Positions 9,071 to 38,058 of a stretch of 64,000 bases of DNA are shown in pieces. Source of the stretch: an uncultured virus (IMG/VR IMGVR_UViG_3300010356_003090) (Duplodnaviria > Heunggongvirae > Uroviricota > Caudoviricetes); the IMG/VR virus record IMGVR_UViG_3300010356_003090; one strand, 5' to 3'. Within the stretch, counting starts at the first letter, position 1; each line of letters begins with the position of its first letter. The notes below the pieces were generated by a model, which saw only the letters and a list, made by a program, of their open reading frames with translations, did no database searches and was not told where the DNA came from. Both the position numbers and the translations under genes were made by a program.

Positions 9071-9072
9071 TC

Positions 9073-9858: not shown

Positions 9859-10887
9859 ATGGCAAGAGGTTTGTTACCGTTTGGCTACATTTCGGAGGGT
9901 AGAGCGCCAAACCCTGCGCCTATCGGCCAAAGCACTCTTGCTCTTTTGGTGAACCCCTCCGCACCGCCAAAGAGGAAAGGAACAGCGAAAATGGCTGGAA
10001 AAAAAGGCAAAGGCAAGAAGCGCGGTCGTACCCCAAACCAAGAAGCAGCGGCAAAGAAAAAGGGGCGGCCAGCGGGTGCATCAACAAAACATGTCAACAT
10101 CGCCGTTGCCATCGAAGGCACAACCAAGAAGGGCAAGAAGTCGGGAAAAATTGCGGCGTATGAAGCAAAAGGCACTCGTGTCGCCAACGGCAAAAAACGC
10201 GGCAAGCGCAAGAACAACGGCAAAAAACGCGGCAAGCGCAAGAACAACGGTGGTTTGCGTGTCCATAACGTGAACATGGCCGAAATCAAAGCCCTTCTCA
10301 AAGACGATCTTTCAAGCCTCCCCGCTGCACTACCCGCGATCCTTGCGGGCGGCGCTGCATGGGCAACCCCTGGACTGATCTACACCCTGATCCCCAAAGA
10401 AACCCGCGACAACTGGGCAAAAAGCATGGGTGATGGGCAGATGGGGCATGATCGCATGAAAGCGGCGATCTCTGGTGCTGTCTTGATCGCGGCATGGCTT
10501 GGTACAAACAAAGTCGAATTTCTCAAAAAGCAACGTCTGCCTATCGTGTTTGGTTCCGCAATCCGCTTCATCTTCGACCTTGCGGGCGCAATGCTTGGCA
10601 AAGAAGGCATCCAAGGCAACGCCCGCGCATGGATGGGCTTACCGGACGGCAATTACGATCTGCAAGTCGCCGCGACCACAAAAGGCAATTGGGTTCAAAT
10701 GACCCCGCAAGGCGTCGGCGGCAACTTCCAACAGTTTACGCCAAGCCTCGGCGGTTGGGCAAATATGCAGCTCCTCCCGCACGGGATGACGATGCAAGGT
10801 ATGCACAGCGGCATCCGTTCGCAGCACTCACAAGGCGGATATGGCGGCGTTGGTGCGCCTTATTCCGTTCATGGTGGAAGTTTCTAG
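9859..10887 (+). CDS. Basic (histone-like) DNA-binding/membrane core protein
   Basis: RBS AGGAG; K/R-rich N-half with a 30-bp duplication (NGKKRGKRKN x2, 10185-10244), hydrophobic helices, Gly-rich tail. Confidence 0.7.
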   Translation: MARGLLPFGYISEGRAPNPAPIGQSTLALLVNPSAPPKRKGTAKMAGKKGKGKKRGRTPNQEAAAKKKGRPAGASTKHVNIAVAIEGTTKKGKKSGKIAAYEAKGTRVANGKKRGKRKNNGKKRGKRKNNGGLRVHNVNMAEIKALLKDDLSSLPAALPAILAGGAAWATPGLIYTLIPKETRDNWAKSMGDGQMGHDRMKAAISGAVLIAAWLGTNKVEFLKKQRLPIVFGSAIRFIFDLAGAMLGKEGIQGNARAWMGLPDGNYDLQVAATTKGNWVQMTPQGVGGNFQQFTPSLGGWANMQLLPHGMTMQGMHSGIRSQHSQGGYGGVGAPYSVHGGSF

Positions 10888-11068
10888 GCCCGACAACTGA
10901 TCCGTTTCTGATCCGTTTTGCTCTTTCATACGATTCGATAGAAGAGGCCACAAAAAGCCCTTTTCCCAAACATCGGCTTTTTCGCTTGGCAAGGCGCGAG
11001 TGGTCTCTTTTATCGTCCTTTTTCAAACATCCGAGATTTCGGACTCCAACACACGGAGAACATAACAG

Positions 11069-11887
11069 ATGAGCGCATACTCTCCCTATCCTGTCGCTGG
11101 TTTCTATGGCGGCTATCCTTCTCCTGTCCACGGTGGCGCGGCCATGCAGCAAGGGCAAGTTCAGCAGTATATGCCCCAAATGCCCGTTGCGATGCCCCAA
11201 ATTGCGATGCCGATGCGGGTTACAAGCCAAAGCGTCATTCCCGCCTCGCAAACCCCCCGCCTTGGTGATGCAAAAGTCATCCAAAATGAATGGTATGACT
11301 ATCTTCTTTCTGGTTATGGCAAGACCATCTCCGAAGAAGAAGGCATCTTCACAAACCCCGAACGCATCGGCAAGCCACAGCTTACCAACTTCAACAAAGC
11401 GGGCGAATTGTCCAATGACAAGCAATTCGAGATCTGCGCGATCTGGTCGTCGTTTTACTTCGACGATTCCGAAGCCGCCGTCAAGACAGCGGGTGCGCCG
11501 TCTGCAAGCCGTCTGTACGATTTGATCGCGTACTATACGCGGTTGATTCTCCAACAACAAGACTCGTATACAACCGTTTTGCAGGGACATCGTATCCCTG
11601 CGGGTGGTGGCGTGTCGGGTTTTGACGTGAACAGCGGTGCTTTCGTCAAAAACCAAGGCGATGCAAACAGCCAAAACCTCTATCGCTTTGATCAATCCTG
11701 TCGCTACCTCGTTCCCCCTGGACGAACCTTTGCCTTTATCCTCAAGTGGATGTCCCGACTTGACGGCGGCGCGGTGTTCCCCACGGGCTTCAACCCCTTG
11801 CAACGCTTCAACGATGCACTTTCCACCGAAAAGCGCGTTTGTTATGGAGCCGTTGGGATCGAGGTTCGCGACTTCGTGAACGGTTAA
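11069..11887 (+). CDS. Candidate major capsid protein (beta-sandwich/jelly-roll-like, unverified)
   Basis: Strong RBS GGAG and biased codon use; P/Y/Q/M leader then a ~205-aa beta-patterned domain (WYD...IF...TNFNKAGELSNDKQFEICAI). Confidence 0.55.
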   Translation: MSAYSPYPVAGFYGGYPSPVHGGAAMQQGQVQQYMPQMPVAMPQIAMPMRVTSQSVIPASQTPRLGDAKVIQNEWYDYLLSGYGKTISEEEGIFTNPERIGKPQLTNFNKAGELSNDKQFEICAIWSSFYFDDSEAAVKTAGAPSASRLYDLIAYYTRLILQQQDSYTTVLQGHRIPAGGGVSGFDVNSGAFVKNQGDANSQNLYRFDQSCRYLVPPGRTFAFILKWMSRLDGGAVFPTGFNPLQRFNDALSTEKRVCYGAVGIEVRDFVNG

Positions 11888-12049
11888 TTTGCCTTTTGGC
11901 TTTGCCCGCCTCCACGCTCTTTGCCCGCCCCCTTCTCCCTCCTCTTCTCCCTCCCCACCCTTGCCCACCCATCCATCTTGACGCCCAAAGATCCCCGCGA
12001 TATGTGGGGATCTTTGGGGCTTGACTTCACTTCAACGGAGATTTTTAAG

Positions 12050-12928
12050 ATGTCCTTTTATCCTCCATATCCCGTCCAGCCATTCGCGCAAGCGCCGCAA
12101 TATCCGAATCCGATGCAACAGATGCCACAGTATCCGATACCGCAAGCACAGCAGTATCCGATGCCGCAAGCGCCACAGTATCCGATGCCTACGGTCAATC
12201 CTTCACAGCTTGCGCTTGGGCAAAGCCCGCAGCAACAAGCACAGCAAATTATCCAAGGCCAAGCAGACAATCGGATCGAGCGGATTGAAGACTTTATGCG
12301 CCGCCTTGATATGCAGCTTCGCGGGATGCAAGGAAACCTTGCGGGGCCAGCGTTGCGCGTTCGCTTTCCTTCCGAGTACCGTGCAGGGATTATTGAGTAT
12401 CCCGATCTTGTCGCGCATCCCTTCTTTTGGGGGGCGTATGAGATCACGGAAGGCGCACAAGGAAATCTACCCTTTGCAACAGCGGGCGGCCAAGCGTCTT
12501 TTGTGCTGAATCTTGATTTGATTTACAGCTATATCCGACGTGTTCACTTTTTTATGTTTCGATCACAAGCACCAAATGGCGACGGTGCGCCGAATTTGGT
12601 TGTTGGTGATTGGATTCCCGTATCGAGCAAAAACGTGTATGTTCTCGGCCCCACCGACCAAGCGCAAGCCTTTCCGTTTGAATTTCGCCTTCGTTCGGGT
12701 TCAAACGTGGAGCAATGGCAAACGCAATGGATTCCTTCGTCTGTGTTGGAGCGTGTCGATCAAGAGGGTTATCCCCTACCTGTCGAATACAAAGCCTACA
12801 ACAAAGACACGATCACCATCGAAGCGCGGCCCCTTCGCGCACGATTCACGGGCGATACGCAAGATGAGATCGTGCGGTTGTTTGTGGGCTTTTCGGGCTA
12901 TAAGATGTATCAAGAAAAGTCTGCATAA
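12050..12928 (+). CDS. Candidate second capsid protein
   Basis: RBS GGAG before ATG 12050; (PQAPQYPM)n leader, short coiled coil, beta-patterned C-domain (YPLPVEY...DTITIEA...VRLFVGFSGYK). Confidence 0.55.
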   Translation: MSFYPPYPVQPFAQAPQYPNPMQQMPQYPIPQAQQYPMPQAPQYPMPTVNPSQLALGQSPQQQAQQIIQGQADNRIERIEDFMRRLDMQLRGMQGNLAGPALRVRFPSEYRAGIIEYPDLVAHPFFWGAYEITEGAQGNLPFATAGGQASFVLNLDLIYSYIRRVHFFMFRSQAPNGDGAPNLVVGDWIPVSSKNVYVLGPTDQAQAFPFEFRLRSGSNVEQWQTQWIPSSVLERVDQEGYPLPVEYKAYNKDTITIEARPLRARFTGDTQDEIVRLFVGFSGYKMYQEKSA

Positions 12929-12981
12929 GTCGGATTGTTCGCAGGGAACATCGAATTATCAGGCGAAAGGGATAGCTTGCC

Positions 12982-13671
12982 ATGTTGAACCACCCAAGCC
13001 CGCAAACCCTCCAAGCCCCGACTCGTGCAGCGGATCAAGACTGGAAGCAATACCTTGACTTGTCGTATCGAGATTGGCGATGGACAAACGCCCCAAATAG
13101 CCGTCCTTTCTTTGTTCAAGGGCGTGTTGAAGGCATCATTCAAGCTGGTTTGCCCGCGAATGGACGGCGAATTGTGCTTGCAGAGTACAATTGCAACGTG
13201 GGCGAATTTGTGGTTGTGCAACACGCGGGCGTTGAGGCGTATTTTCGCACACCGAATCAAGCCCTTGGAACGCCAAGCACACGCATCCCGCCAGCCGATC
13301 TAGGAATGGGGGTGTTTTGGGAAGTGACATGGCGGCGGATCACGGAAAATGCGGGCTTGCAAGCAAGCGCGGCATTGCGCGATCTTGAGGGGCTTATTTT
13401 GGGCGATCCACAAAACGGCTTCACGCAAATGTCCCATTTGTCGATCAATGAGGGCTGGTTTCCGCTGGACTTTGAAGATAAGGGTGTCTTGTCGCTGACT
13501 TTGAACATCCAAAATCTCGGTGTGTACAGCGAAAACGCAATTTTGTTCTTTCAAGGCCGCATGGGTGGCTATGCCTCGCTTATCCCTTCATCGCGACAAG
13601 ATCGCGCGTACCCTTACGGAAAAAAAGCGGGCGGAACCGTCCCGCAATGGAACCCCCTAGATCGCGGGTAG
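12982..13671 (+). CDS. Candidate minor capsid/penton-like protein
   Basis: Beta-patterned sequence with a similar ending (LSLTLNI...FFQGRMGGY); follows the two capsid candidates. Confidence 0.5.
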   Translation: MLNHPSPQTLQAPTRAADQDWKQYLDLSYRDWRWTNAPNSRPFFVQGRVEGIIQAGLPANGRRIVLAEYNCNVGEFVVVQHAGVEAYFRTPNQALGTPSTRIPPADLGMGVFWEVTWRRITENAGLQASAALRDLEGLILGDPQNGFTQMSHLSINEGWFPLDFEDKGVLSLTLNIQNLGVYSENAILFFQGRMGGYASLIPSSRQDRAYPYGKKAGGTVPQWNPLDRG

Positions 13672-13796
13672 GCGAAAAAGCCTCTTTGCTTGCGATTTGA
13701 GCGCAATTGAATCAAAAACAAACCTTCCCCCTTCTTGTCTCTACAGAAATAGACTCAAGGCGCGGGAAAGCACGAAATACGAAAGGCAAGGAAACA

Positions 13797-14378
13797 ATGG
13801 CAAGACGAAAAAACAAACGGCGCAAGCCGAACGAATCCAAGGGCGGCGGCTTTGGTGTCCTTTTGGCGGTGGTTGGCGTGGGAGCCGTGGCGATGATGGC
13901 GATGAGTGGCGGTGATGCAGGGACACCGATCACAGCACTCACGCCCGAACAACACGCCCGAATCAAGGCCGTTTTGGATGCGTGTATTCCTGCGGGGCTT
14001 GTTCCCGAACCGTGGCGGGCGGCGGTCGCGCAGAATCCGAACTTGCTTCTTGAGATCGGCAAGTCAACGGGAATGACCAATTGGCGGGCGCTTTCGTATC
14101 TTTTCGTGTATCTGATCTTGTATGGTTACGTTGTGGCCGCAAGTGCGGCAAACGCCGAATATACGAACGTCCAGACCGTGATCAATGCTGCAATTGCGGC
14201 ACTCAAAAAACGTGCAGATGCCGAAAAATCATCCTTTCAAGCGATGATGATTTATGAGCTCCGACACGAAAACGACAAGGCGTTGAACGCGCTTGTGGCT
14301 GCAAATGTGATCGATGCAAGCTATGCCGCACAATGGAAGGCGGCAATTCAAAAGATGATCGCGATGGAGCCGCTGTAA
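13797..14378 (+). CDS. Membrane protein with basic N-terminus and signal-anchor
   Basis: MARRKNKRRKPNESK followed by a TM segment; RBS AAGGA. Confidence 0.75.
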   Translation: MARRKNKRRKPNESKGGGFGVLLAVVGVGAVAMMAMSGGDAGTPITALTPEQHARIKAVLDACIPAGLVPEPWRAAVAQNPNLLLEIGKSTGMTNWRALSYLFVYLILYGYVVAASAANAEYTNVQTVINAAIAALKKRADAEKSSFQAMMIYELRHENDKALNALVAANVIDASYAAQWKAAIQKMIAMEPL

Positions 14379-14419
14379 CCGTTGTTTTTGTGCAAAAAGC
14401 AATCTGACAAAAGGAGAGT

Positions 14420-16099
14420 GTGGCGATGGGGCGCAAGCGCAAAAAGAACGAATCCAAGAGCGAAAACACGGCGGCGCTAGGTCTCGGAATTGCGGCGTTA
14501 GCGGTGGGTGGCCTGTTTTTGATGGCGGGTGGTTCGGAAGATTCCAAAGATAAAATCCTTGAAGACGTGAATCAATCGCCCGCAAAGGACTGGTCAAAGG
14601 TGAGCATTGATCCCGACAAAGTGCCAGAACTAGATCAAGCACACTTGCCAAACCACGGGGTAATGCTTGCGCCCAACGGTCAAGCCATTGTGCCGAATGT
14701 CAACGATCAAGGTACACAGGGATCGCTAGAATGGAACGCTGCTCGAACCTACGAGGAGCGATTCATCGACAAATGGAAGATCCCCAAGACTTACAACGCA
14801 AAAGACTTCACCGCATTGATCAAGAACGGCGCAACGGGCGTCTTCAAATTTCCGCTTGTGAACAAGGTACGACTAAACCCCGTCACCGCCGATCTTTATG
14901 GAGACATCGAGGCGAGACGATTCACGATTCTGATCGAGTCGATGGACGATCTCGAACACTTGGAAGTCTTCTTAGCCTGTTTGATGATCGCGACCTTCAA
15001 TCCAACACAAGGCGCACCCGATGCAACCGCGATTGATGGGGTCAAACAGATGTTCGAGTGTTTCGGCTATCATCGCTTTGTTTTGCCCGAAAACACCGCA
15101 ACTTTCCAAACCATGCTAGGGCTATCTCGGATCTTGCCAAGAAGCGAGCAAGCGTGGGTGATGGCGTCTCGCATGGATGCAGCGGGGCAGCGTGTGGATG
15201 ACGAATCGATCAAGCGTTATATCCGCAACGGTTGGGGGTGGGGAATTCCAAGCGAATGTATCCCCTACTTTCGAGAGGGCTTTTTTAACGAGTCCACGTT
15301 TGGACGCGACGAAAACAAACCAACGGGCAAGCGGTTTGCTGAATTGAGCGAACAGGAAGCGCAAGCGGTCAATGCCGCGTTCTTGGACGGCAATATGTTG
15401 ATCCTTGAACGTGCGGCAATTCGTTTTTCTAACGTGGTGATGATGCTTTGCGCGGGTGGCTCGGTATCCAGCGCACAAAACATCTTGGGGCGCGTGGGAA
15501 CAACCTTACTTGCACTTGGCGCAGGGACAGCGGGCGCGTTTGCGGGTGACTTCAAAGGCTTGATCGCAGGAGCGACCGAGGGGATCAAGCTATTGATTGA
15601 TCTCTTTGCGTCAGCGGATAAGGCCGAACAGAACAACAAAGCAGCGCAAAACATGATCGACGCGCACATCCTGCGCGTAATGGAAAAGATGAACCGAAGC
15701 CATACGCAATTCCTCGGCTATCGCTTGCGTACAGAAGCCAATTGGAGCGGATTTCGGATCGGCCCAAGTCGAACGCTTGCCCGCTACTTGCGCAATTTTG
15801 TACTGCAACGAGACGGCTTGTTTGCGGGGTGTGGCGCTGTGTTGTATCCGCAAATTTCCATGTTTTTACGGATGCCCAAATTCGGAGTGATCGCCTATGC
15901 GGGCAATCAAGACAATTTCGGCGTGGTTCTACGCTACGATTCCACCGCAAAACACACGGGGCTTTATCCGATTGGTTGGGTTCCGTTCAAGATCACCCAT
16001 GCCGATCAAATGGTGGAATTCATCGACTACACCGAACCAAAGAGTGTGCGATTGGATGAATTTGATCTTGGCGTCAAGTCTTTGAAGTTTGGAAAATAG
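14420..16099 (+). CDS. Membrane-anchored hypothetical virion protein
   Basis: RKRKKNESK followed by TM; second Gly/Ala hydrophobic hairpin. Confidence 0.75.
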   Translation: MAMGRKRKKNESKSENTAALGLGIAALAVGGLFLMAGGSEDSKDKILEDVNQSPAKDWSKVSIDPDKVPELDQAHLPNHGVMLAPNGQAIVPNVNDQGTQGSLEWNAARTYEERFIDKWKIPKTYNAKDFTALIKNGATGVFKFPLVNKVRLNPVTADLYGDIEARRFTILIESMDDLEHLEVFLACLMIATFNPTQGAPDATAIDGVKQMFECFGYHRFVLPENTATFQTMLGLSRILPRSEQAWVMASRMDAAGQRVDDESIKRYIRNGWGWGIPSECIPYFREGFFNESTFGRDENKPTGKRFAELSEQEAQAVNAAFLDGNMLILERAAIRFSNVVMMLCAGGSVSSAQNILGRVGTTLLALGAGTAGAFAGDFKGLIAGATEGIKLLIDLFASADKAEQNNKAAQNMIDAHILRVMEKMNRSHTQFLGYRLRTEANWSGFRIGPSRTLARYLRNFVLQRDGLFAGCGAVLYPQISMFLRMPKFGVIAYAGNQDNFGVVLRYDSTAKHTGLYPIGWVPFKITHADQMVEFIDYTEPKSVRLDEFDLGVKSLKFGK

Positions 16100-16120
16100 C
16101 AAGCGGTGGAGGTTTTGGCG

Positions 16121-18415: not shown

Positions 18416-18451
18416 TCTCGGCAAATCCGCTCAATTTGGAAGGTCAAAGGC

Positions 18452-19045
18452 ATGAATTATCGACCATATCGACAAAGTGCATACGATCCGATGCGTTTGA
18501 ACAACCGCTTGCCGAATCAATGGTATGATCCCCGCGCATCGAATCCATACCACCACCGAACCCGCAATTCGTTTGCTTGGAGGATGCGCAACCCGCCAAC
18601 ATTCGCAGATCTTCTCCCTGAAATGCAGGAGGCCGCAAGGGATCAAGTTCAAGAATTTCTGCGCCTTGTTCCCGAAAAGCTGCGCCTTGCCGCAAAAAAC
18701 GAAGCGCACTATCAAGAACTGTTGAGCGCATTTTATCGAAATCAGCAGGTTGTAGAAGAGAAAAAACTTGCGCAAGCTGTCAGCGACGTGATCGAACTCG
18801 CCCGCGAGGGTGGATATCCAGATCACGAGATCTTTCACGTTCCCGCATCTACAACCCCCGCGATGATCGATGTTGCGCCCCCCTATGAAGCCCCACCACC
18901 CATGATGCCAAGTATCTCCGAACCTCCCCCCATCCCCCCACAAACCCTTGAAGGCTTGGATCAAGCCCAACGTGCGTTGCTGGACGCCGTACTGCAAGAG
19001 ATCCCCGTTGTTGTTGCGGAAATGGCTCAAGAGGGGCTTATCTAA
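18452..19045 (+). CDS. Hypothetical protein (RxxNP-tagged N-terminus)
   Basis: RASNP and RMRNP in an R/N/P/Y-rich leader. Confidence 0.75.
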   Translation: MNYRPYRQSAYDPMRLNNRLPNQWYDPRASNPYHHRTRNSFAWRMRNPPTFADLLPEMQEAARDQVQEFLRLVPEKLRLAAKNEAHYQELLSAFYRNQQVVEEKKLAQAVSDVIELAREGGYPDHEIFHVPASTTPAMIDVAPPYEAPPPMMPSISEPPPIPPQTLEGLDQAQRALLDAVLQEIPVVVAEMAQEGLI

Positions 19046-19145
19046 GCAAAGAGAGGGGATTGCAAGATGTTGATGTTGAAAGATGTCTTGACGGCAGCAC
19101 TTGAACACCTTGCTTTGATGACTTGAGTACAAGGGACGAAACAAG

Positions 19146-20846: not shown

Positions 20847-20847
20847 A

Positions 20848-22719
20848 ATGAATCAGATCTCTTCTCAAAAAATAGCGGCGATCATCGCAAGAGTAAAAGA
20901 AGCACTCCACAAGCGAGGATTGCCCGAAGAATCGATCCATTTTTTTGATGATTCGCCAAATGTTCTACGTTGGCTTGTTCACACCATTGAATTTTTATTC
21001 AAGCCATCCGATGCCATCGCACACACAACCCTTGTAATAACAAGCCCCGAAGGTTCGGAGAAATTGCCTTGTCGTTATATGATTGTGGATGCCAAAAATT
21101 TGATCCCGTCGCATATCCCTACAGATGCAGGATTGCTACAGAAAAATTCAAAGTACCCAGACAATCTACAAGAACGATCCTATGAAGGCGACATCATGGA
21201 GGCAGAGAAGGTGCGCAACAACCTTCGCCAATTCTTCCCTCCACTTGTGATCAATACAAATCCCGACGCGGTGAACGGCCCGCCCGTTGCAGATCGCAAT
21301 CTCGTTGTTTTGGGTGGAAACTCACGCGCAATGACGATGCAGCTAATGTACAAACAGAGTCAACATTCTTCTCGATACAGGGAAATTCAAGCAAAGTATA
21401 TCAGCTATTTGATCGAGCGTTCTCTTGACTTTGGCCTGACAATCGGTGATGTGCTTGCGGTTCAACAACCTATCCTGATCCGCGTCTTGGACTTGGATAC
21501 AATGCGCCGATTCAGCGAAGCGCAACGCCTTGTGAGGCTGCTTAACGAAAGCCTAACGCAAAAGATGTCTTACACGCAGGAATTGACCGCCATTGCGCGA
21601 AGTATCCCGCGTGAAGGATGGAACAAGATCGCCAAAGTGATCGCGCTTACGATGGATGTTGAAGATTCAACATTCAACGAGTATATGCAGACGCCAAAGG
21701 CCACGCCATTGATCGATACCTTGCGTCAATTCGGCGTTTTCAGTCTTCGCAATTTCAGCGTGTACTTTGATCAAGAAAACAAGGCACTCAATCGATTAGG
21801 GCGCTTCTTTGTAAAAGACATCTTGCTTGGCCGCGTCTTCCACAATCACCCCGAACAAATCGCCAAATTAACAGACTCGCAATTTGATCTATTCTCGGAT
21901 CTTGCGCCTTTTTTGATTGCATCGTCTTGTTGCGATCTCAGTTTCGATATTTTAAGCGACTTAATGATCGCCGTTCAAGCCGCCGATTATATGAAGAACG
22001 CCAAGCACACGGAAAACAGACAGCAGGTATTGACTTATCCCTCGTTTGTATCGATCCGCAAGGTCGCACAATTCAATCTGTTTTATCAGATACCACCCGA
22101 ATTTGACGATGCACAAAAGACGGTTAGACGGCGTTTTTTGTGGCAATTGTTCTTTGATATGGGAACAAAGCGGCGCTATTTAATGCGCGGCTTTCAACGC
22201 TATGCCATACGCGCCGCACTACGCGATGAATTGCAAGGTGGACTTGCTCTATCAAGTGAAGAATTGAACATTGAACCAGAAAGCGCAAACAGCACGATTC
22301 TTTGGGCCTTTCAAGCAAAGAGATGGCAACAAGAAACAACCGCAGATGCAGCAGAATTTGAACTTGCGGAACAAAATTTACTCGAAAACGCATCAACGCA
22401 CCAACAAGGCTTGCAAGAAGACAAAAAAACAATCGTTCTCTCGCACAAGGACGGCATCTTGACAATCGAGCGAACAATCCGAGGGAAAAGGCACGTCTTT
22501 TCTTATTTTGATAGCTATACGCAACTTGTTCAAAGTGGACAGGCTTTGACAGTAGACAGCGAGCAAGCAAGAGCGTTGCAACCCGCCACATCTACACATT
22601 CTGCGCAAGGCTTGCGTTTGCTGAATCCCCAAGCAAAGACAAGGCAAGAACGGCTTGCCAACGCGCAAGAATTGCGCTTTGATCCAAGGGCTGCTGCATG
22701 GGAAGTTTCGCGTAGATAG
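20848..22719 (+). CDS. DdrB-like ParB-superfamily domain protein
   Basis: YMIVDAKNLIPSH...YPDNLQERSY...DAVNGPPV...VVLGGNSRAM matches the ddrB-ParB pattern of polyvalent proteins. Confidence 0.75.
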   Translation: MNQISSQKIAAIIARVKEALHKRGLPEESIHFFDDSPNVLRWLVHTIEFLFKPSDAIAHTTLVITSPEGSEKLPCRYMIVDAKNLIPSHIPTDAGLLQKNSKYPDNLQERSYEGDIMEAEKVRNNLRQFFPPLVINTNPDAVNGPPVADRNLVVLGGNSRAMTMQLMYKQSQHSSRYREIQAKYISYLIERSLDFGLTIGDVLAVQQPILIRVLDLDTMRRFSEAQRLVRLLNESLTQKMSYTQELTAIARSIPREGWNKIAKVIALTMDVEDSTFNEYMQTPKATPLIDTLRQFGVFSLRNFSVYFDQENKALNRLGRFFVKDILLGRVFHNHPEQIAKLTDSQFDLFSDLAPFLIASSCCDLSFDILSDLMIAVQAADYMKNAKHTENRQQVLTYPSFVSIRKVAQFNLFYQIPPEFDDAQKTVRRRFLWQLFFDMGTKRRYLMRGFQRYAIRAALRDELQGGLALSSEELNIEPESANSTILWAFQAKRWQQETTADAAEFELAEQNLLENASTHQQGLQEDKKTIVLSHKDGILTIERTIRGKRHVFSYFDSYTQLVQSGQALTVDSEQARALQPATSTHSAQGLRLLNPQAKTRQERLANAQELRFDPRAAAWEVSRR

Positions 22720-22778
22720 CCAAAGTTCTCTACAAGAGGCAAGGAAACGGCATAAGAGGCCACGAAACGGAGAAAGCG

Positions 22779-25049
22779 ATGTATCCCCCAAGTCGAATGA
22801 CACACCCCATCCTAAGCGAAGGAAAGCCGCTTTCTCCTCACATTGGCAGAGGGGGAGATCTCAGACAGCGCAACATTGACGCCCGCCTCGTGTTGGGTCG
22901 CACACCGAACCCTCTTGCGGGCGATCCGCTGTATATCCCCGCTGGTGATGGTCATCGCCACAAATACAATCGTTTGCGCTGGGGCAAAGGGCATCGAAGG
23001 ACACCAAACAAGCCGATAGGACAGCTTGTTGATGTGGCCCGTGCAAAGCTACAAGCGCGGCTTTTGTTGCGGTTTGCTGGACAAGAGGCGTTTGTATTAG
23101 AATCGATCAAAAAACGCGCATTGTCTAAGAAGATCGACGCACTCTTGACGCAAGCGATAAGCGAACATCTGCAACGCGCCGCCCTAGATCTTTTCGACAA
23201 TGCCGACGATATAGGCCGTGTTGGGTGGATCAGCATTGAAGGCGCGTTTTTGAAGTGGATCGACGCAGACGAAGAAGAAGGACAAGCAAGCCAAGTCAAG
23301 GTCAAGAATGAGTACGGCCCGAATAAGTTTGATAGAGCGTCGGTTCGCTCGATCTACTCGTTCTTGTCGAAGGTTGAATCCAGCCGCCCCGAAGATATCG
23401 CACAAGGGATCGTGCTATCAGACAGCGAAGCGCAAAAAGCCTATCACTTTTTGCGCAAGTACCGCAAACAACTCCCCCAAATTGGCATCCAGTTTGATCG
23501 GATTATTCCACCGCTTACCGCCGCCGAAAAGAAAATGCTTGCCGAACAAGGCGAGGATGAAGACAGCGAAAAAGACAGCAAAACCGCAAGCATCGAAGAC
23601 TTGATGAAATTGTCTGTAGGAGAACAAACCCACACTCCAACGCGCAGCAAGCAAGATTCTGTGTACTCCATTCCGCGCCGTATTGCCGAACACAAAGGCA
23701 ATGTACAAGCCCAAATGCAGCTTTTGTACGATGAAGCCTTTTCAAGAATCCATTCGATCATTTCGGGCATTTCGCAGCGTATGCAAGAAAAGGCATCGCT
23801 TACAAACCTTGAAGCAAAGCCAATCGCCCCCGTCCTTTCGTTTATGTATCAATGCCATGAACTGTACTACCTCGGCAACCGTGCCGATATCGCAGCATTG
23901 GCGGAACTACGAGCAGAGAACGAAGATGCCCCTATTCCAAAAGGATACAAGGGCGTTCCAAAAGGATACAAGGGCGTTTTGGGGATCTTGCTCGAACAAA
24001 TGAACGTAGGAACCCCCGCCGATCCCACAAAGAGAATCAAGTACAACGAAAAACAGGGCTATGGCTTGTTTTCGCTAGATGGTGTCTTTGAAAAATACGC
24101 CAACGGAGAGACACGACGCACCCCCGAAGATCTGGACGGACTTAACCCATCCATGCGCGATCTTGACTTGGTAAGCGAACGCTACGCCGCGATCTTGTCG
24201 AACTTCTTGCGCTATGCCCTGATCCTTTTTGATATTGATCACTACGACCAATTAAAGCCTAGCAAGTTTCGCTTGGCGCTCGAAGCCTACAACGCCCAAC
24301 ACCCCGACCAAAAACTCCAGCCCTATCAAGTCCAGATCGATCCAACGCAAATCAGCGGCTTTGTGAAGGATATGATTGAAAAGGCGTTGAAGCATCCAAA
24401 AGTGATCCCATGCGGCGTGATGCAAAACGGCGATCTTCTGCTTTCGCTCACGAAAGACGACAAGGGAAAGCTGCAATATATCCATGTGTACGAGGTGGAT
24501 GCTTCGCTGTCCGATGTCGCGAAAACGGAAAAGTTTATGCGCGAAGTTTATGCCCACAAGATGAGGCGGTTTGCAGAAGGCGATAAATACGCAATGGATT
24601 ATTTTTCAAATCATCTCGTGCAAGGCATCGACATTGGAAGTGTACGGGCTTTCTACTCACATAGTGGCTTGCGTGTTTTATCTCCACAAGGCGATTTGAT
24701 TACAGACAAGGGGGAAGCTGAAAGTTCAAGCCTGATCGGGATGGGCTTGCGTAAAGTCCTTGAATGGACTGCTCAAAAAGACCCGATCCGATTCTTTACC
24801 AACGACGAACAGGCGGTCATCGACACCGATCCCGCGTTTCGCTTGATCCGTGATCGATTCACTCCAAGCAATTTGATCAAAAAACTGCACAATCACGGAT
24901 TCGCAAAGCTGTTTCTCTTCTTGCATAGCCTCGGTGTGCCGCTTATTGGCGACGAATACACGAAAGAACGCGACACGATCCGCAAGGTCGCAGCCAAGAC
25001 CAAAGCCGAAAAAGACGGCAACGAAAGAAGAAATAAATCCAGCGAATAA
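22779..25049 (+). CDS. Large hypothetical protein
   Basis: 756-aa ORF with RBS GGAG; RTPNP in the basic leader; LSDSEAQKAYHFLRKYRKQL motif; 21-bp duplication at 23935-23976. Confidence 0.75.
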   Translation: MYPPSRMTHPILSEGKPLSPHIGRGGDLRQRNIDARLVLGRTPNPLAGDPLYIPAGDGHRHKYNRLRWGKGHRRTPNKPIGQLVDVARAKLQARLLLRFAGQEAFVLESIKKRALSKKIDALLTQAISEHLQRAALDLFDNADDIGRVGWISIEGAFLKWIDADEEEGQASQVKVKNEYGPNKFDRASVRSIYSFLSKVESSRPEDIAQGIVLSDSEAQKAYHFLRKYRKQLPQIGIQFDRIIPPLTAAEKKMLAEQGEDEDSEKDSKTASIEDLMKLSVGEQTHTPTRSKQDSVYSIPRRIAEHKGNVQAQMQLLYDEAFSRIHSIISGISQRMQEKASLTNLEAKPIAPVLSFMYQCHELYYLGNRADIAALAELRAENEDAPIPKGYKGVPKGYKGVLGILLEQMNVGTPADPTKRIKYNEKQGYGLFSLDGVFEKYANGETRRTPEDLDGLNPSMRDLDLVSERYAAILSNFLRYALILFDIDHYDQLKPSKFRLALEAYNAQHPDQKLQPYQVQIDPTQISGFVKDMIEKALKHPKVIPCGVMQNGDLLLSLTKDDKGKLQYIHVYEVDASLSDVAKTEKFMREVYAHKMRRFAEGDKYAMDYFSNHLVQGIDIGSVRAFYSHSGLRVLSPQGDLITDKGEAESSSLIGMGLRKVLEWTAQKDPIRFFTNDEQAVIDTDPAFRLIRDRFTPSNLIKKLHNHGFAKLFLFLHSLGVPLIGDEYTKERDTIRKVAAKTKAEKDGNERRNKSSE

Positions 25050-25079
25050 GCCCGAACATCGGACAAAAGGAGCCTCTTT

Positions 25080-28000
25080 ATGTTCCCACGCCATCCAAGA
25101 TCGCCCTTAAAGATGTTTGCGATGCCACACGCTGATCGCTATCAGCCAAGACGCTACAATCCGCAAAGTTCGCTTGATCTAAGCGTAGATGAAGCGATGA
25201 ACACAACCTCAAGACAGGCAAGCAAGCAAGAGATCCTTGCGCGAAGCATCGAGATCTTGATTGATCGTGTCGCAAGCGAAATGCTCAAAGTCGCGAATGA
25301 TGCGGGTATCAATGCGAAAGTGATGCCGATGATCGCAGATCAAGAAGCCTTCTTGAAAGAAGCCCGCACATTTTGCCAAGCAGAGCCGCGCTATAGCGAA
25401 TTGATCGACCGCTTATCCGCTGAATTGGGCGTTGAATTCTCCTACGGGCTGTCTGGTGAATACCTTGCCTTCTTTGAAGACTTACGAAGCAAGCTAAAAG
25501 AGATCCCGAAAGAAGATATCTCTGCCCGCTTGCGCATGATCAAAGAAGCCATTGCAAGAAACAGGAACCTCAACCTTTCTCAAGCCCTAAACGACCTGCC
25601 CACGGTCTTTTCCATCCGATCCGCCGTCCTTGGTGAAGAAGTCGAAGTTTTGCAATTTTACATTGCGTGGGGTGTGCCAAAAGAAGACTTTGAACACTTC
25701 GCAAACAAACAACAAAACAAGCGCGAGTATGCAGATCGCCAACAAGAGATCAAAGTCTACCAAGAGAACGCAAAAACCATCCTGTCCGAACTCTACGAAA
25801 GCCAAGATGCCGACAACAAGAAGATCATTGACGACGAAATGATCCGCGCTCGTATGCAGATCACGGAAACAGATCGGCGCAACGGTGAGAGTGTAGAAAC
25901 ACTTGCACTCGAAAAACTACTTGCCCAACGTGCGCTTTTGCTTGGTTCTGCACCCGAAAAAGAAAGCAAAAAGAAGGCGACAAAAATTGCTGTTAAGGTA
26001 CAGCAAGAATACCTGCGCAATAAAGCCTACACCTTGAACCATCTGCCCGCCTTCATCGAAGCCGATCTAAAAGATTCGCAGGAAAAACGCTTGCTGTATG
26101 CGCTGCTTGCACCGTATTCTTGCTTTATTGGAAAGATGCGCTGGACGAAAAACACGTTCAACGTGTACACGTTGACTGGTTCTGAAGTGTTGCGCGTGGG
26201 CAATTGGCCGCTTGTTTCTCCGAAGTCGGTTGACGTGTATCACGAAGCACTCGGAGCAGCGTTTGAATCCATCGAATTGACGCGCAAAAACCTTGCGCGA
26301 TACAACGCCGATATCATCCCATCATCCCCACCACTTCGACGACAAGAGCAGCTTATGATCAGCCTGTTGACAGCGGCAAACGCTCGACAGCATCAACGAA
26401 GCCTTGCCTCTGCCCGCAACCTCGAATTGTCGGATCAAGTGGACGTAGAATTGAGCGAAACGGAATGGATGGATCGGCTTGGTGGCTTGGTTGATCCGAG
26501 ACCGTGGCAGCTTGCAGCAACCGAAGTCGCAGCAAACAACCCTCGTGTGTTTTTGGCTGACCCAACAGGTTTCGGAAAAACAGGACAAGCCTTGTTGATC
26601 CTTGAGCGGAACCTTGCTTATCCAGCGGTGATCGTCTGCCCACCTGGGGTCTTTCAAAATTGGGCCGCCGCTGTCAAGCAATGGCTGCCGCACCGATCCG
26701 TCTCGCTTCTTGAGGGGGGCATGGCGCAAAGCCTGACAGTCGGGGGGAAAACACTCAAAGCCTCCGATGTGTGGAAGGCATACGACCAACAAGAAACAAA
26801 CAGAGGCGGAAGCCTTGCATCTTTCATCTCCTCCCTACCTTCCGAGATGAAGCCCAAATTTGTAACCGTGTCGGTTGAAAAGGCGCAAAGAGACTCTTCC
26901 CGCCGTGAATTCGACAAAGCGGAGATACCCATTGATCGATATGATGTGGACATTGTGATCGTATCCAAAGACTCGCTAAAAATCGACGTTGGGCGGGGCT
27001 TGGAGGGGAGATTGATCCCACCGATCCTAAGTCGAGTCAACAAGGGGTTTGTGTTCGATGAATCGCACTATTTGAAGAACCGACGCACGGCTACTTACCA
27101 AGCCGCGAAGGTCGTTGCCTCCCAAGCAAGCACACGGCTTTTGTTGAGCGCAACCATCCTAACCAACAATGCCGAAGAATTGAGAAACCAACTGGACATT
27201 CTGGGGCAGCTTTACGACTTCTTTGGATCGCCGCAAGAATTTTATGAAGCCTTTGAATCGTTGAAGGGCGGGGGTATGCGTGGGGGCGTCACAAGCAATC
27301 TTTCCGAGGCAAACATTGCAAAGTCGGAGAAGGTGAACGAGATCTTGCGCCGTTGTTGCTATGTGCGCCGATTCCCCGAACAATTGCAAGCAATGGGCGC
27401 GATGCCCAAGCCACACCGCCAAACCCTGCCCGTCTTGCTCGATCATGCGTGGGCCGATGCCTACGAGGGAAGTATCAAGGATTTCAAAGATGCGGTGCTT
27501 GAATACTCCGCAGGGATCGCACAAATGATCTTTTCGGGTATCTTGCAAATTGCCTCCGATGTGATGAGACAGATCTTGACAACACGCGACCTATCCGAAC
27601 TCAAAGGGCAGTTTGAAAGACTCCTTGATTATGCCCAAGGCAAGGGAAAAAACACCAAAGACTACAAAGGGCAAAGCGCCGAAGAGGTTAAGCTGATCGC
27701 CTATCATAAAGCCGTGGACGCGGAGATCAGAAGCACTCTTACACACAGCATTGACCGCGCAATGATCGAGATCGAGCGGGTGGGTAGAACCATCACCGAG
27801 CGATTGAACGCGAAACTTGCAGAGCGGAATGAAGAATTTTCCGAATTGATGGAACTGGAAAGCGAAGACAGCGACGAAGACAGCGACGAAGACAAAGAAG
27901 CGGCCAAGGCAAAGGCCAAGGCAAAGGCCGAAGCCAAGGCGAAAGCCGAAGAAGAGAAGCGGCCCGAACTTACATCCTCCCAAAAGAAGCTATTTCAAAG

Positions 28001-29318: not shown

Positions 29319-29352
29319 AACAGCGCAGCAAAACCAAAAGAAAGACACAACC

Positions 29353-29751
29353 ATGTCAGCTCGACACATGAACCCACCCGACGTTACGCCGATCACAATG
29401 CGCGACTTGGAGCAAGGAGAGAACGTCTTGCGCGTCTTGCAGACGGCACTTCTGTTTGGAGAATTGGACTTGAACCAAGTCTTATCCGAATTTCGCGAGG
29501 AATTCCCCAGAATGGATATCGGCTTTGTCCAAGTCGCGATCCAACTTGCAAGCGCAGGACACTTGATCGCGGCATTCCATCTGGTGAAACGGCAAGAAGC
29601 AAATGAAGCGCGGCGCTATCGTATGGAAATTGGAGCCGCGATGGGCTTGGGCCTTGATGAAATTCTTGCGTTCTTGTCGGACTTTGCGAAGCGAAGCCTA
29701 ACCGCGATGCGCCGCCGCCTTGAGGCGGACTTCCCAAAGTCCACTTTTTAA
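29353..29751 (+). CDS. Hypothetical protein (RHMNP N-terminus)
   Basis: Operonic ORF starting MSARHMNPP. Confidence 0.7.
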   Translation: MSARHMNPPDVTPITMRDLEQGENVLRVLQTALLFGELDLNQVLSEFREEFPRMDIGFVQVAIQLASAGHLIAAFHLVKRQEANEARRYRMEIGAAMGLGLDEILAFLSDFAKRSLTAMRRRLEADFPKSTF

Positions 29752-29783
29752 CCGAACCACTCAACCCACAAGGAGGGGTGAAC

Positions 29784-30335: not shown

Positions 30336-30346
30336 AGGTTGACACC

Positions 30347-31588: not shown

Positions 31589-31785
31589 CGCACTACCGCT
31601 TTTTGCAGAGAAGGGCAAACATCGACATTGATCAAGCGGTGGTCGATATCTACCCACCCACAGACGGCAAAGCCTTTGATGTTGGCGAGCAAGAGACCGA
31701 GATCTTTGTCAAGAGTCTGCAATTTTCGCCTACGCCGCACGGAATGAAGCTAATTGCGTTGGCTTACAGGATGGAGCGTGTTTAA
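31585..31785 (+). CDS. Small hypothetical protein
   Basis: TTGA overlap upstream and TAATG overlap downstream. Confidence 0.5.
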   Translation: MTHYRFLQRRANIDIDQAVVDIYPPTDGKAFDVGEQETEIFVKSLQFSPTPHGMKLIALAYRMERV

Positions 31786-32999: not shown

Positions 33000-33007
33000 G
33001 AAAAGCA

Positions 33008-34082
33008 ATGGCAAAACAAAAGCAAACCACTCTGGATCTTCTGGAACTACAGAAAGACGTGATACAAGGCGAATTGTCGCGCTTGTTGTGGTTGAATCAC
33101 GCATTAGGCTTTGTGTATCAAATACACGATAAAGACCCCAAGCATCTTCGCGTATCAGCACGAGACAATCAAAAACGAGATGATTACATCTGGCACTTTC
33201 GAGACTCGATCAAAGAATTTTTTGGATACAAACCCAAACAATTATTTGATAGCCTAGACGTTGTGTATCCTACACGACTTCTTGTCGATAACTTAAAAGC
33301 ATTGTTTTATGCCCAATTTCTCTATCGTTTCTTTTTCTCGAAATTTAGCACAGCACAACAAACGCATATTCCCTCTTTAGTGAAGGCTTGGAATAACAGC
33401 GCCGCAAAGATGATCTTCTCCAACATGGAGATCCCTTTGTTTGTCAATGATAATATCATTGATCAATCCGTTCCGCTCAATAAAAACGGATGCGCGAAAG
33501 GGGATATCCAATTCAAGAAATTGACCATCGAAACAACAAAGGCATCTGTGAAAGAAGGGGGAGGCGTCACGGTTTCGTTCTTTCTTGATGCAACGATTCG
33601 CTTTTACACAGGAAGAACCATTGACGGCAAGCCATTCACAATAGACAGACACACCTTGCTTTCAGAGAGAATACGCGCAACGGGCGAAGATGCAGATGAG
33701 GGAGGCCATCTATAAGCTAATGCAATGGCTCCAAATGATTGAAAACCTGCCCTACTCACGATCCGATATCGCGAATCTTTCCCCCGATTTCCTAAAGAGG
33801 CTTGTTACCCCAAGTCTTGCATCTTTTGCAGATCGGAAAAGAAAACACGCCGCAAGTATCATCGAAAGGCGAGCAGCTTCCAACGCGATCAAGAAGCTGG
33901 CAGAAATAAAAAGCAAGAAACAACTAGAGGATAAGTATAGTGCAGAATATCGACGCTATGAGGGGCTTTTCCTTTATTACGTCAAAAGCGAAGAGGTAAA
34001 GCACCTAGTGAATCAAACGATCCATAGCATCCTTGATCAACGTGGAGAAACACCCGATAAGATCGGCTTTATTGACAAGTAA
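33008..34082 (+). pseudogene. Frameshifted gene (ORFs 33008-33715 and 33690-34082), paralog of 38072-39160
   Basis: GAGG-GAGG at 33698-33705; removing 4 nt gives one 356-aa frame whose two halves align by eye with the 362-aa paralog. Confidence 0.65.
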
Positions 34083-34092
34083 AGGAAAAGCC

Positions 34093-36516: not shown

Positions 36517-36528
36517 GGATTATCCGTC

Positions 36529-38058
36529 ATGTTGGACAGGGAAACAGAGGAAAGGTATCTATCAAGATCACTCGATAGAGCAGAACGAAAACTGAACAAA
36601 GAGATCGACCAACAAACCGCGCTAAGCGACGAACAAATCAAGACGTTGCGCGATGAATTGAAGAACAACACCGCTGGTCTTTACGATGCGATGATCGATG
36701 ATTCTTCGTCTGATTACCCCTATAACGTGATGATTCGAGAGATTCGCGGGCGCTTACACGAAGAGATCAACAAGCTGCAATCATCGAGATCTAGCGATCC
36801 GCTGGATTCTTTGTCGTTGGATATCTTGTCTATACCGATACCAACCACTCCATCCAAAGCACCCACCGCGCCGAAGTCTTCCATCCCATCGACGCTCGAA
36901 GCAGATGCCGCATTTCTTGAACTTGCCGATCTTGTCGCATCAAGCAAAGTCAAGCAACTCGCCAAGATCGGAGATTGGCTTTTAAATTGTCCAGCTTATC
37001 GATCAGGCAACTACAAAAACTGGATGGCGCGGTGGTCAACCTCGACAGGGAAAGCGATAGAATTTTACAACGATCCAAAGCGAGCCAAAGCCCCCGAAAA
37101 AGTGGAATCAAGAAAACTAGAAGACAAATACGGAGATCCCGTAAAATACGACGCATACTATCAAATTCCAGACAATAACCTGAGAATTGGGAGTGTGGTG
37201 CAGTTTGCCTCAGATAGCTATCGGGGCGACGATAAGGTTAGAATATACGGTGTGTTTCTCGGCATGACACCGAGCCGCTTTGAACCGAGCGACCCCAAAG
37301 AGGACGCGGGATCGTTTCTGTATATTCATCTTAGCGTAAACAAGGACTTTGGGGGTAAATGGGATGCTGCTGCAAAAGCAGCGGAAAAACTTGCGCAACA
37401 AATCAAGAGTCTATTCGACAAGCAAACGCTCTTAGCAAACCCCTATCTAGGGCTTCTTGCGCCGATCCCTGACACAAACAGCCCGTTGTTGCATGAAGAT
37501 CTGGGATACCGTGTCGAATCTCTTGCAAGCGTTCCCTTTTGGGAATACGCCAAGAACCGCAAGAAACGGATGGAGGAGGCCGCGAAAGCGGCAAGCGAAA
37601 GCAGCGAGGAGCGAACCACAAACCCCAAGCGACGGCTTGGGTATTGGACAGATACGCGGTTTCCATATCTCCCCCTCGAATACATCAACGCGCTGGAGCC
37701 TCTTGCAAGGGCTTTGGGCGTTTCAGAAGTCGCAAGAGGGGTGTCACCTTCTGGACGTGGAGATCGTGGCTTTTTGGTGGCTTTCCGTGACGCAGACGGC
37801 AAGCCGTCAAATTTGGACGATATCTCTATCCAAGACGGCAAGCAAGAAGGCTATTGGATCAACAAGCGCGAAGACTTCAACACCCGACACCTTGCGCAGA
37901 TCCGCAAGAACAAACGCCCCTTGTGGACAACTTGGAAGGGGCAAGCGATCCCAACACGTCAACACCTTGCGCTTGCAATGTGGGCCTATTCCCCCGAAGC
38001 AAGGCGGCTTGAGCGATGGGTTGAACAAAACGAATCCTTTTTAGAATCGCTTGAATAA
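36529..38058 (+). CDS. Multidomain hypothetical protein
   Basis: A distinct C-terminal domain begins after RTTNP: GVSEVARG...W..KR..F..RH...PTRQHLALAMWAYSP. Confidence 0.75.
   Translation: MLDRETEERYLSRSLDRAERKLNKEIDQQTALSDEQIKTLRDELKNNTAGLYDAMIDDSSSDYPYNVMIREIRGRLHEEINKLQSSRSSDPLDSLSLDILSIPIPTTPSKAPTAPKSSIPSTLEADAAFLELADLVASSKVKQLAKIGDWLLNCPAYRSGNYKNWMARWSTSTGKAIEFYNDPKRAKAPEKVESRKLEDKYGDPVKYDAYYQIPDNNLRIGSVVQFASDSYRGDDKVRIYGVFLGMTPSRFEPSDPKEDAGSFLYIHLSVNKDFGGKWDAAAKAAEKLAQQIKSLFDKQTLLANPYLGLLAPIPDTNSPLLHEDLGYRVESLASVPFWEYAKNRKKRMEEAAKAASESSEERTTNPKRRLGYWTDTRFPYLPLEYINALEPLARALGVSEVARGVSPSGRGDRGFLVAFRDADGKPSNLDDISIQDGKQEGYWINKREDFNTRHLAQIRKNKRPLWTTWKGQAIPTRQHLALAMWAYSPEARRLERWVEQNESFLESLE

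What the first reader, a model, noticed from the sequence alone, without database searches (positions are those of the whole stretch)
9859..38058. Recurrent R-x-x-N-P peptide tag across unrelated proteins: candidate virion-cargo address or cleavage code
Seen: 12 exact RxxNP motifs in 8 otherwise unrelated proteins: 9859 (RAPNP), 16121 (RQRNP, RRNNP x2, RANNP), 18452 (RASNP, RMRNP), 20848 (RLLNP), 22779 (RTPNP), 25080 (RRYNP), 29353 (RHMNP) and 36529 (RTTNP). They sit mainly in short basic N-terminal leaders or at domain borders. Variants RVANG, RKNNG x2, RTPNQ and RTPNK accompany them. With ordinary residue frequencies roughly one would be expected in this span (my rough estimate). I did not notice the motif in the 44-64 kb genes. 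Known analogies: the T4 capsid-targeting sequence and virion maturation-protease sites. Inference: a modular tag that lets the virus recruit arbitrary enzymes into the particle and/or cut polyproteins into units.
Basis: partly seen in the sequence, partly recalled or inferred. Interest (0 to 1): 0.9.

Follow-up and report, generated by a model that had tools for sequence, protein, structure and literature searches.

The report
Asn-Pro cut marks in viral proteins
In an uncultured tail-less sludge virus, a five-residue mark (Arg-x-x-Asn-Pro) recurs at the starts and joints of eight late proteins and is kept in relatives; it most likely tells a viral protease where to cut, but no cutting has been shown.

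Summary
There are 12 RxxNP in 8 of 20 ORFs against 1.1-1.3 expected, the top pattern of 128,000 tested. All six Arg codons are used, so it is a protein signal.

The window is most of a probably circular 71-kb sludge virus with a single jelly-roll capsid candidate. In three homologs of the 16121 protein (39-50% identity), R, N and P are invariant at two sites while the x positions vary; one homolog starts at the motif.

Extended copies have Asn-Pro/Asn-Gly where standalone copies start (9 of 10 vs 0 of 4); the window's own copy is the miss.

Best reading (0.5): a cleavage seam, with the zincin as lead cutter. The transglutaminase-fold 5198 and the fold-less 9296 remain candidates. Docking address: 0.25.

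Against: 12 of 20 block ORFs lack the motif, strict RxxNP is lineage-limited, and an unbiased boundary test in distant relatives was flat. This scan found such seams before on other viruses; my paper searches did not find them.

The parts
9901..9915 (+). RAPNP, residues 15-19 of basic protein 9859; a second NP (LLVNP) follows at residue 32
   Evidence: kept in the relative L024
16274..16288 (+). RQRNP in the 16106/16121 protein
   Evidence: RQHNP in P0083
16319..16333 (+). RRNNP, opens the first copy of an internally repeated ~45-aa module
   Evidence: RTGNP in P0083; module absent in P0084 and P0085
16529..16543 (+). RRNNP, opens the second copy of the module; R, N, P invariant in 4 of 4 homologs; P0085 begins 2 residues before it
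   Evidence: R137, N140, P141
17279..17293 (+). RANNP; R, N, P invariant in 4 of 4; 10- and 14-residue insertions directly upstream in two homologs
   Evidence: R387, N390, P391
18533..18547 (+). RASNP, residue 28 of ORF 18452
18581..18595 (+). RMRNP, residue 44 of ORF 18452
22615..22629 (+). RLLNP, 34 residues from the C-end of the DdrB-ParB protein 20848
22899..22913 (+). RTPNP, residue 41 of ORF 22779
25149..25163 (+). RRYNP, residue 24 of the SNF2 helicase 25080
29362..29376 (+). RHMNP, residue 4 of ORF 29353
37612..37626 (+). RTTNP after a charged linker, before the last 148 aa of ORF 36529
   Evidence: no relatives retrieved for the distal part
43586..44155 (+). Zincin metallopeptidase (H144-E-x-x-H148, E160; R112, D164, Y177 also invariant), last gene of the + strand late block; lead candidate cutter. 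The start codon is inferred
   Evidence: 8 invariant columns in 10 sequences; HHalign probability 81, E 1e-5
5198..5887 (+). Transglutaminase-fold protein with C153-H186-D202; candidate protease or cross-linker
   Evidence: PF01841, E 6e-4, under the cut-off; triad in 8 of 8 aligned, homologs in 9 of 9 genomes
9296..9847 (+). Conserved protein with no fold match; Y59, K63, H75, G180 invariant in A3; position 61 is Ser, Thr or Cys; candidate reader or cutter
   Evidence: pLDDT 93; best Z 2.5
9859..10887 (+). Basic (net +38) core-protein candidate; 6 of its first 11 Asn have Arg at -3
   Evidence: link to relatives' basic proteins rests on position and leader pattern only, no HMM hit
11069..11887 (+). 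Single jelly-roll major capsid candidate
   Evidence: pLDDT 51; best Z 6.7, rmsd 4.5, 149 aligned; homologs in 9 of 9 related genomes

Best explanation
RxxNP is this lineage's form of an Asn-Pro/Asn-Gly seam signal that marks where late proteins are cut by a virus-encoded protease.

Steps: (1) shown: the motif is selected at protein level and sits in leaders and module joints. (2) shown: modules are duplicated, lost or fused at it. (3) shown: three candidate enzymes are conserved in all ten genomes examined. (4) inferred: tagged precursors (basic core protein, ParB nuclease, SNF2 helicase, unknowns) co-assemble inside a membrane-containing jelly-roll particle. (5) inferred: they are trimmed and split into units for DNA condensation or delivery into the next host. 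(6) inferred, weakest: the cutter is the zincin at about 43586-44155 (about 0.27 of the 0.5), cutting before the Asn so that products start with Asn-Pro; the transglutaminase-fold 5198 and the 9296 protein share the remainder.
For: Enrichment 12 vs 1.1-1.3 with strict register. Six Arg and four Pro codons are used and no DNA repeat family covers the sites.

R, N and P are invariant at two sites in 4 of 4 homologs of 16121 while xx varies. 8 of 9 NP in the three homologs have Arg at -3. P0085 starts at the motif and P0084 lacks the module between two sites. N-terminal extensions of 9296 homologs hold RxxNP 9 times vs 0.47 expected, against 2 vs 1.5 in the domain cores.

The zincin is in 9 of 9 related genomes and is fused to variable partners (ART-PolyVal, kinase-like, DUF5661, DUF1391). 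N[PG] lies 70-92 residues before HExxH in 9 of 10 extended copies and 0 of 4 standalone or N-terminal ones (expected 1.65, Fisher P=0.005). Three of the 9 (L102, L105, L108) were retrieved after the idea was formed.

Precedent: MPTase zincins are predicted to process polyvalent phage proteins, and P1 DdrB is cleaved before packaging (PMC5512222, section 8). Short shared motifs with several cuts per propeptide are shown for SPN3US (PMC10052503).
Against: No cleavage, neo-terminus or virion data. 12 of 20 block ORFs lack the motif. The window's own zincin has no N[PG] seam before its domain and has no Pfam match better than E 0.1.

In 9 distant genomes strict RxxNP is not enriched (best P 0.04); only NP is (P<0.01 in 6 of 9, with a lossy gene caller that recovered 8 of 14 window motifs). 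An unbiased test on 112 internal module starts in those genomes was flat: NP 11 vs 9.6, N[PG] 25 vs 19.6, RxxNP 0 vs 0.6.

The 70-92 window was set after seeing the first nine zincins, and these are related sequences (median identity 25%, maximum 75%). The nine genomes were selected through the 9296 pattern. PMC5512222 also lists MPTase-bearing proteins that are packaged or transferred uncut.
Confidence: 0.5

Rival explanations
1. Docking or packaging address: the peptide binds a reader (9296, capsid inner face or a scaffold) and recruits cargo without being cut; internal copies are left over from fusions of tagged genes.
For: 8 of 12 copies lie in the first 80 aa. 29353 and P0085 have only 2-3 residues before the motif, little to remove. 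9296 has a conserved polar patch, no enzyme-like fold match and sits next to the first tagged gene.
Against: The seam is present in fused zincins and absent in standalone ones, whereas an address should stay on standalone cargo. Internal copies are invariant at 39-50% identity. 12 of 20 block ORFs are untagged.
Confidence: 0.25
2. Structural or evolutionary by-product: Asn-Pro/Asn-Gly is a turn or helix cap that suits domain starts and is carried along when modules fuse, with no reader.
For: NP as a capping motif (recalled). The unbiased boundary test was flat, and the residue at -3 differs between lineages.
Against: Standalone zincins fold without it (0 of 4). A cap does not explain Arg and never Lys at -3 (12 vs 0) in proteins with different Pfam matches.
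Confidence: 0.11
3. Asn-Pro self-cleavage by Asn side-chain attack, as in RsgI and reovirus mu1, perhaps triggered by a bound cofactor such as 9296.
For: Asn and Pro are the constant pair, and autocleavage at Asn-Pro is established (PMC10328401 passages).
Against: Known cases need a fixed folded setting. Here the pair sits in hydrophilic leaders and linkers of different proteins, and conserved peptidases are at hand.
Confidence: 0.08
4. Modification or cross-linking site: the transglutaminase-fold 5198 deamidates, ligates or cross-links at the Asn rather than releasing units.
For: 5198 has an intact Cys-His-Asp triad and is conserved. TG-fold enzymes act on side-chain amides (recalled).
Against: 5198 lies among the membrane and shell genes, where a different phi-x-G-phi-G pattern is mildly enriched (8 vs 2.8, P=0.008 uncorrected). 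Module loss at the motif fits cutting better.
Confidence: 0.05
5. Chance or a DNA-level repeat.
For: The block edges were chosen after the fact.
Against: It survives look-elsewhere correction in the block and across all 61 ORFs. Codons are fully degenerate and the motif is conserved in homologs.
Confidence: 0.01

Closest known systems
Polyvalent proteins of phages and conjugative elements with zincin MPTase (Iyer et al. 2017, PMC5512222; passages and section 8 read, supplements not seen)
   Same: Same cargo types (DdrB-ParB, SNF2, methylase; ART-PolyVal in a relative) in a late-gene context, and a HExxH+Glu zincin fused to variable modules in relatives.
   Different: No cleavage motif appears in the passages read. 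Here the enzymes are mostly separate ORFs, the zincin stands alone and would act in trans, and the virus has a jelly-roll capsid candidate.
Prohead-protease maturation of T4 (gp21, capsid targeting sequence) and SPN3US (gp245, AXE motif) (PMC10052503, passages read)
   Same: A short degenerate motif shared by many internal proteins, mostly near N-termini, sometimes several per protein.
   Different: Those are tailed HK97 phages cutting after Glu. No terminase, portal, HK97 capsid or prohead protease was matched here, and the motif also marks internal joints.
Asn-Pro autoproteolysis (RsgI; reovirus mu1/VP5) (PMC10328401, passages read)
   Same: A conserved Asn-Pro pair; used in virion activation in reoviruses.
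   Different: One site in one fixed fold there; here many sites in different proteins with an upstream Arg, and Asn-Gly in distant relatives.
Single jelly-roll tailless viruses (Sphaerolipoviridae, Simuloviridae; PMC12643093, PMC12642351, search listing and abstract start only)
   Same: Single jelly-roll capsid candidate and predicted membrane proteins.
   Different: Genomes here are 71 kb (relatives 72-298 kb) against 16-30 kb, and no packaging ATPase was recognised by a Walker A scan.

Membership tests
Polyvalent proteins (Iyer 2017) | Characteristic domains (DdrB-ParB, SNF2, methylase, ART-PolyVal) | tested here: met
   PF18763 E 5e-11 in 20848; SNF2 in 25080; methylase PHROG hits in 34033; ART-PolyVal E 6e-7 in G006, just under its cut-off
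Polyvalent proteins (Iyer 2017) | Several unrelated enzymatic domains in one polypeptide | tested here: inconclusive
   Each window ORF shows at most one recognised enzyme, with large unassigned parts; zincin fusions occur in relatives
Polyvalent proteins (Iyer 2017) | Zincin MPTase with HExxH and a downstream Glu | tested here: met
   H, E, H and E invariant in 10 of 10
Polyvalent proteins (Iyer 2017) | Zincin belongs to one of the MPTase clades | tested here: inconclusive
   No polyvalent-MPTase model was listed at E<=1 for 10 proteins, only weak generic zincin hits; no tree was built
Prohead-protease maturation (T4 gp21 / SPN3US gp245) | Short shared motif near N-termini of several internal proteins | tested here: met
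   8 of 12 within the first 80 aa, P=0.0002
Prohead-protease maturation (T4 gp21 / SPN3US gp245) | HK97 head module with a prohead protease | tested here: not met
   No such match in Pfam (39+36+10 ORFs), PHROGs (39 ORFs) or NCBIfam (29 virus ORFs); the capsid candidate is a jelly roll
Prohead-protease maturation (T4 gp21 / SPN3US gp245) | Cleavage at the motif shown by virion mass spectrometry | not testable with these tools
   No isolate; no match among 50,697 phage records for 9296, 11069 or 36529
Asn-Pro autoproteolytic domains (RsgI, mu1) | Asn-Pro held in one conserved folded setting | tested here: not met
   Sites are in leaders and linkers of proteins with different or no family matches; flanks share nothing beyond the motif. 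No structure was predicted for the tagged proteins
Single jelly-roll viruses (Sphaerolipoviridae, Simuloviridae) | Single jelly-roll major capsid protein | tested here: inconclusive
   Model pLDDT 51; top matches are jelly rolls but Z is 6.7 or less (orf virus scaffold 6.7, SPV1 5.0, HHIV-2 4.5); nearest named Atlas clusters are PF18628/PF25513 at 0.76-0.77
Single jelly-roll viruses (Sphaerolipoviridae, Simuloviridae) | Two major capsid proteins | not tested
   11921 and 12982 were not folded; 11921 gave only E 0.03 to the relatives' neighbouring family
Single jelly-roll viruses (Sphaerolipoviridae, Simuloviridae) | FtsK/A32-type packaging ATPase (recalled feature) | tested here: inconclusive
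   A Walker A scan found only RadA as a credible ATPase in the window and contig tail, and no shared candidate in 9 relatives; divergent motifs would be missed

The most novel reading that the evidence does not exclude
An undescribed group of large (70-300 kb) single jelly-roll viruses without a recognisable packaging ATPase uses a small zincin as an Asn-specific N-side endopeptidase. It reads an x|Asn-Pro/Gly code, tuned per lineage (Arg at -3 here), that lets any enzyme be appended to a virion polyprotein and released.
Probability: 0.25. Interest if true: 0.85.

Novelty: new variant of a known kind. Interest (0 to 1): 0.62.

Why it matters
Zincin processing of polyvalent phage proteins was predicted in 2017, and no cut site appears in the passages I read. 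This virus supplies a concrete five-residue candidate site, a 189-aa standalone candidate enzyme and two alternates, all testable in E. coli without culturing the virus. If true, it gives a new protease specificity (Asn next to Pro), a maturation pathway for a large unclassified virus group common enough to recur across this scan, and a portable tag. The 9296 family is also a confident model with no fold match. Interest is tempered because the scan has noted the seam phenomenon on many other viruses and nothing functional is shown.

Tried and rejected
- Co-folding of the zincin (A6) with Zn and residues 125-158 of A5 gave no answer (score 0.01, controls not run). It is not used for or against. 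A 9296+peptide job was never run, so binding by 9296, 5198 or the capsid is untested.
- Fold searches of the 9296 model found nothing clear: best Z 2.5, no E<=0.001; Atlas hits were under 0.9. This does not prove a new fold.
- 'Invariant Ser61 means serine protease' was dropped: among 11 distinct locus copies the position is Thr in 7, Ser in 3 and Cys in 1.
- A DNA repeat or recombination site behind the motif was rejected.
- 2A-type ribosomal skipping and sortase signals (recalled motifs) were rejected, since none of the 12 sites has NPGP or NPxTN.
- Close relatives were not retrieved from viral contigs, genome contigs or named phages. Metagenome contigs gave one near-identical contig (L023) and one 1.5-kb relative (L024). 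Seven of the eight tagged proteins therefore have little or no homolog test.
- 0 of 4 new zincin contigs matched 9296, but they are 32-76% complete, so this is uninformative. L108 lies on the same contig as the 9296 locus L017.
- lost 16 locus proteins to a wrong anchor. It was redone: N[PG] in 6 of 10 extensions vs 2.4 expected, RxxN[PG] in 0 of 10.
- No RNA holder was listed. Laid contigs showed only 40 of 302 variant places, none at a motif.
- Paper searches found no description of the motif. In some searches I saw only 40 of 261 and 15 of 230 listings, all unrelated. PMC5894146 has no mention of protease, transglutaminase or polyprotein in its main text. Supplements of all papers were not read and may bear on this.
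Full report
CONTEXT. The window matches contig C251 (71,159 nt) of G001, a 3.6-Mb binned genome that need not be the host. Both contig ends lie in one coding tandem repeat, so the element is probably circular. It is held by activated-sludge and wastewater runs; leaving out the possible source, three studies hold half or more of its sampled words. From 5198 to 44155 the genes run on the + strand: a transglutaminase-fold protein (5198), predicted membrane proteins, 9296, a basic protein (9859), a jelly-roll capsid candidate (11069; low-confidence model, best Z 6.7), then a block with DdrB-ParB, SNF2 and methylase genes, an NlpC/P60 hydrolase, two spike-like genes and a zincin. No tailed-phage head gene was matched.

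OBSERVATION. All 12 motifs are present. On 61 hand-picked ORFs (shadow frames dropped), the 20 block ORFs give 12 against 1.13 (whole shuffle) or 1.26 (local shuffle). RxxNP is the best of 128,000 gapped triplets (Bonferroni 5e-4). KxxNP and RxxxNP are 0. The other 41 ORFs give 2 vs 1.2, and all 61 give 14 vs 2.4. Eight of 12 lie within the first 80 residues (expected 2.6), and all six Arg and four Pro codons are used.

CONSERVATION IN CLOSE RELATIVES. Only two tagged proteins could be tested. The 16121 protein has three non-self homologs at 50, 42 and 39% identity. R137/N140/P141 and R387/N390/P391 are invariant while the two middle residues vary, and insertions of 10 and 14 residues fall just before the second site. 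An internally repeated module opens at the motif in both copies. P0084 lacks the first copy and P0085 starts two residues before the motif. Eight of 9 NP pairs in the homologs have Arg at -3. A 1.5-kb relative keeps the first sites of 9859 and loses the Arg at one NNG site.

WIDER GROUP. A profile of 9296 found 71 proteins. In their N-terminal extensions RxxNP occurs 9 times in 7 proteins vs 0.47 expected, against 2 vs 1.5 in the cores; the 776-aa P0076 has six NP, none with Arg at -3. A degenerate DNA pattern gave 19 viral loci, all true members. I read nine of their genomes (72-298 kb) in pieces. All nine carry the capsid candidate and the transglutaminase. Those inspected keep the order 9296, basic protein, capsid, and the basic protein opens with a double NP like 9859. 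That last homology is positional only. In these distant genomes strict RxxNP is not enriched, NP is enriched in 6 of 9, and an unbiased test on 112 internal module starts was flat. So the Arg at -3 is lineage-specific, and the seam rule is not genome-wide.

THE ZINCIN. All-against-all clustering showed a further family in 9 of 9 genomes: a HExGH zincin. It is standalone in some genomes and in others fused to basic repeats, kinase-like, DUF5661, DUF1391 or ART-PolyVal modules. The window ORF at about 43586-44155 is its homolog: best HMM hit among the virus's ORFs (E 1.4e-4), HHalign probability 81, eight invariant columns in ten sequences. A second pattern scan added four contigs and the contig of L017. 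Among 14 distinct zincins, N[PG] lies 70-92 residues before HExxH, where standalone copies start, in 9 of 10 extended copies and 0 of 4 standalone or N-terminal ones (expected 1.65). In G006 an NG follows the zincin just before the ART domain. The miss is the window's own zincin. The range was set after seeing the first set, and the sequences are related. The 9296 family shows the same trend more weakly (6 of 10 vs 2.4; 8 of 14 NP vs 2.2).

MECHANISM. A signal that appears when a module is fused and is absent when it stands alone fits a cut site better than a cap or an address. So do the internal invariant copies and the repeated Asn punctuation of the basic protein. Leaders of only 2-3 residues fit an address better, and the two roles can coexist, as with T4 propeptides (PMC10052503 passages). 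The zincin leads as cutter because it is universal in the sample, sits inside seam-marked polyproteins, and its class is predicted to process such proteins (PMC5512222 section 8; the same section lists uncut exceptions). Many zincins choose the residue after the cut (recalled), which would give x|Asn-Pro rather than N|P. 5198 has an intact triad but lies among shell genes with a weak Gly pattern of their own. 9296 has a Ser/Thr/Cys-Lys-His-Tyr patch and no fold match. None of these assignments is tested. Odds: cleavage 0.5, docking 0.25, by-product 0.11, self-cleavage 0.08, modification 0.05, chance 0.01.

KNOWN AND NEW. It works like prohead-protease maturation and like the predicted processing of polyvalent proteins. 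It is not a member of the first (no HK97 head module) and only partly meets the second. Ten paper searches did not find the motif (large listings were seen only in part, supplements not read). This scan reported Asn-Pro seams on at least ten other viral sequences. One of them (e1-6077131) mentions a small zinc protease among the polyproteins. I took the word 'seam', and the idea that modules begin at NP, from those notes; they are unchecked leads, not support. Added here: the strict Arg register with homolog proof, the Asn-Gly form, and the fused-versus-standalone zincin contrast.

VERDICT. A real, selected signal; new variant of a known kind; interest 0.62.

Noticed in passing
window 55100-55660: About five head-to-tail copies of a 104-bp unit directly after the tyrosine integrase 53684-55093; G001 aligns here in two overlapping pieces, so the copy number may differ. 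Possible origin or attachment region.
   Followed up: no
L001:1-132 and L003:8965-9160: Both ends of the 71,159-nt contig lie in the same 30-nt repeat, which codes for a Pro/Gln-rich repeat in one ORF, so the genome is probably circular.
   Followed up: partly
window 9296-9847: Family of 71 aligned members with a confident model (pLDDT 93) and no fold match; conserved Y-x-[STC]-[DN]-K-W, Y-x-H-x-H and a C-terminal G-I-x-[NG].
   Followed up: yes
window 5198-16099: A second pattern, phi-x-G-phi-G, is mildly enriched in the membrane and shell genes (8 vs 2.8) and above expectation in all 9 relatives; possible substrate code of 5198.
   Followed up: partly
window and 9 related genomes: No FtsK/A32-type packaging ATPase was recognised by a Walker A scan.
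   Followed up: partly
L024:420-422: The relative's 9859 homolog has an in-frame TAG in the basic region next to an NNG site, and its last site reads GKNNG (read). It may be a sequencing error or a real split; relatives also split this gene.
   Followed up: no
window 10008, 10208, 21610-22256: Wastewater contigs show a 12-nt insertion and a 24-nt deletion in the basic region of 9859, and one contig skips 645 nt (a multiple of three) inside ORF 20848, not at a motif.
   Followed up: no
window 13707-16099 and 40133-40840: Three predicted membrane proteins begin with a basic leader ending in RxxN (RKPNE, RKKNE, RKKNR) before the hydrophobic helix; 40133 is an NlpC/P60 hydrolase.
   Followed up: no
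window 40840-41139 and 42350-42649: Two spike-like ORFs share an 87% identical 300-nt start and then diverge.
   Followed up: no
window 3591-4592 and 46647-47852: Two FGE-sulfatase-like genes on opposite strands with related DNA; RadA at 366, MT-A70 methyltransferase at 46072 and a split primase/DUF3987 pair at 57813-60631.
   Followed up: no
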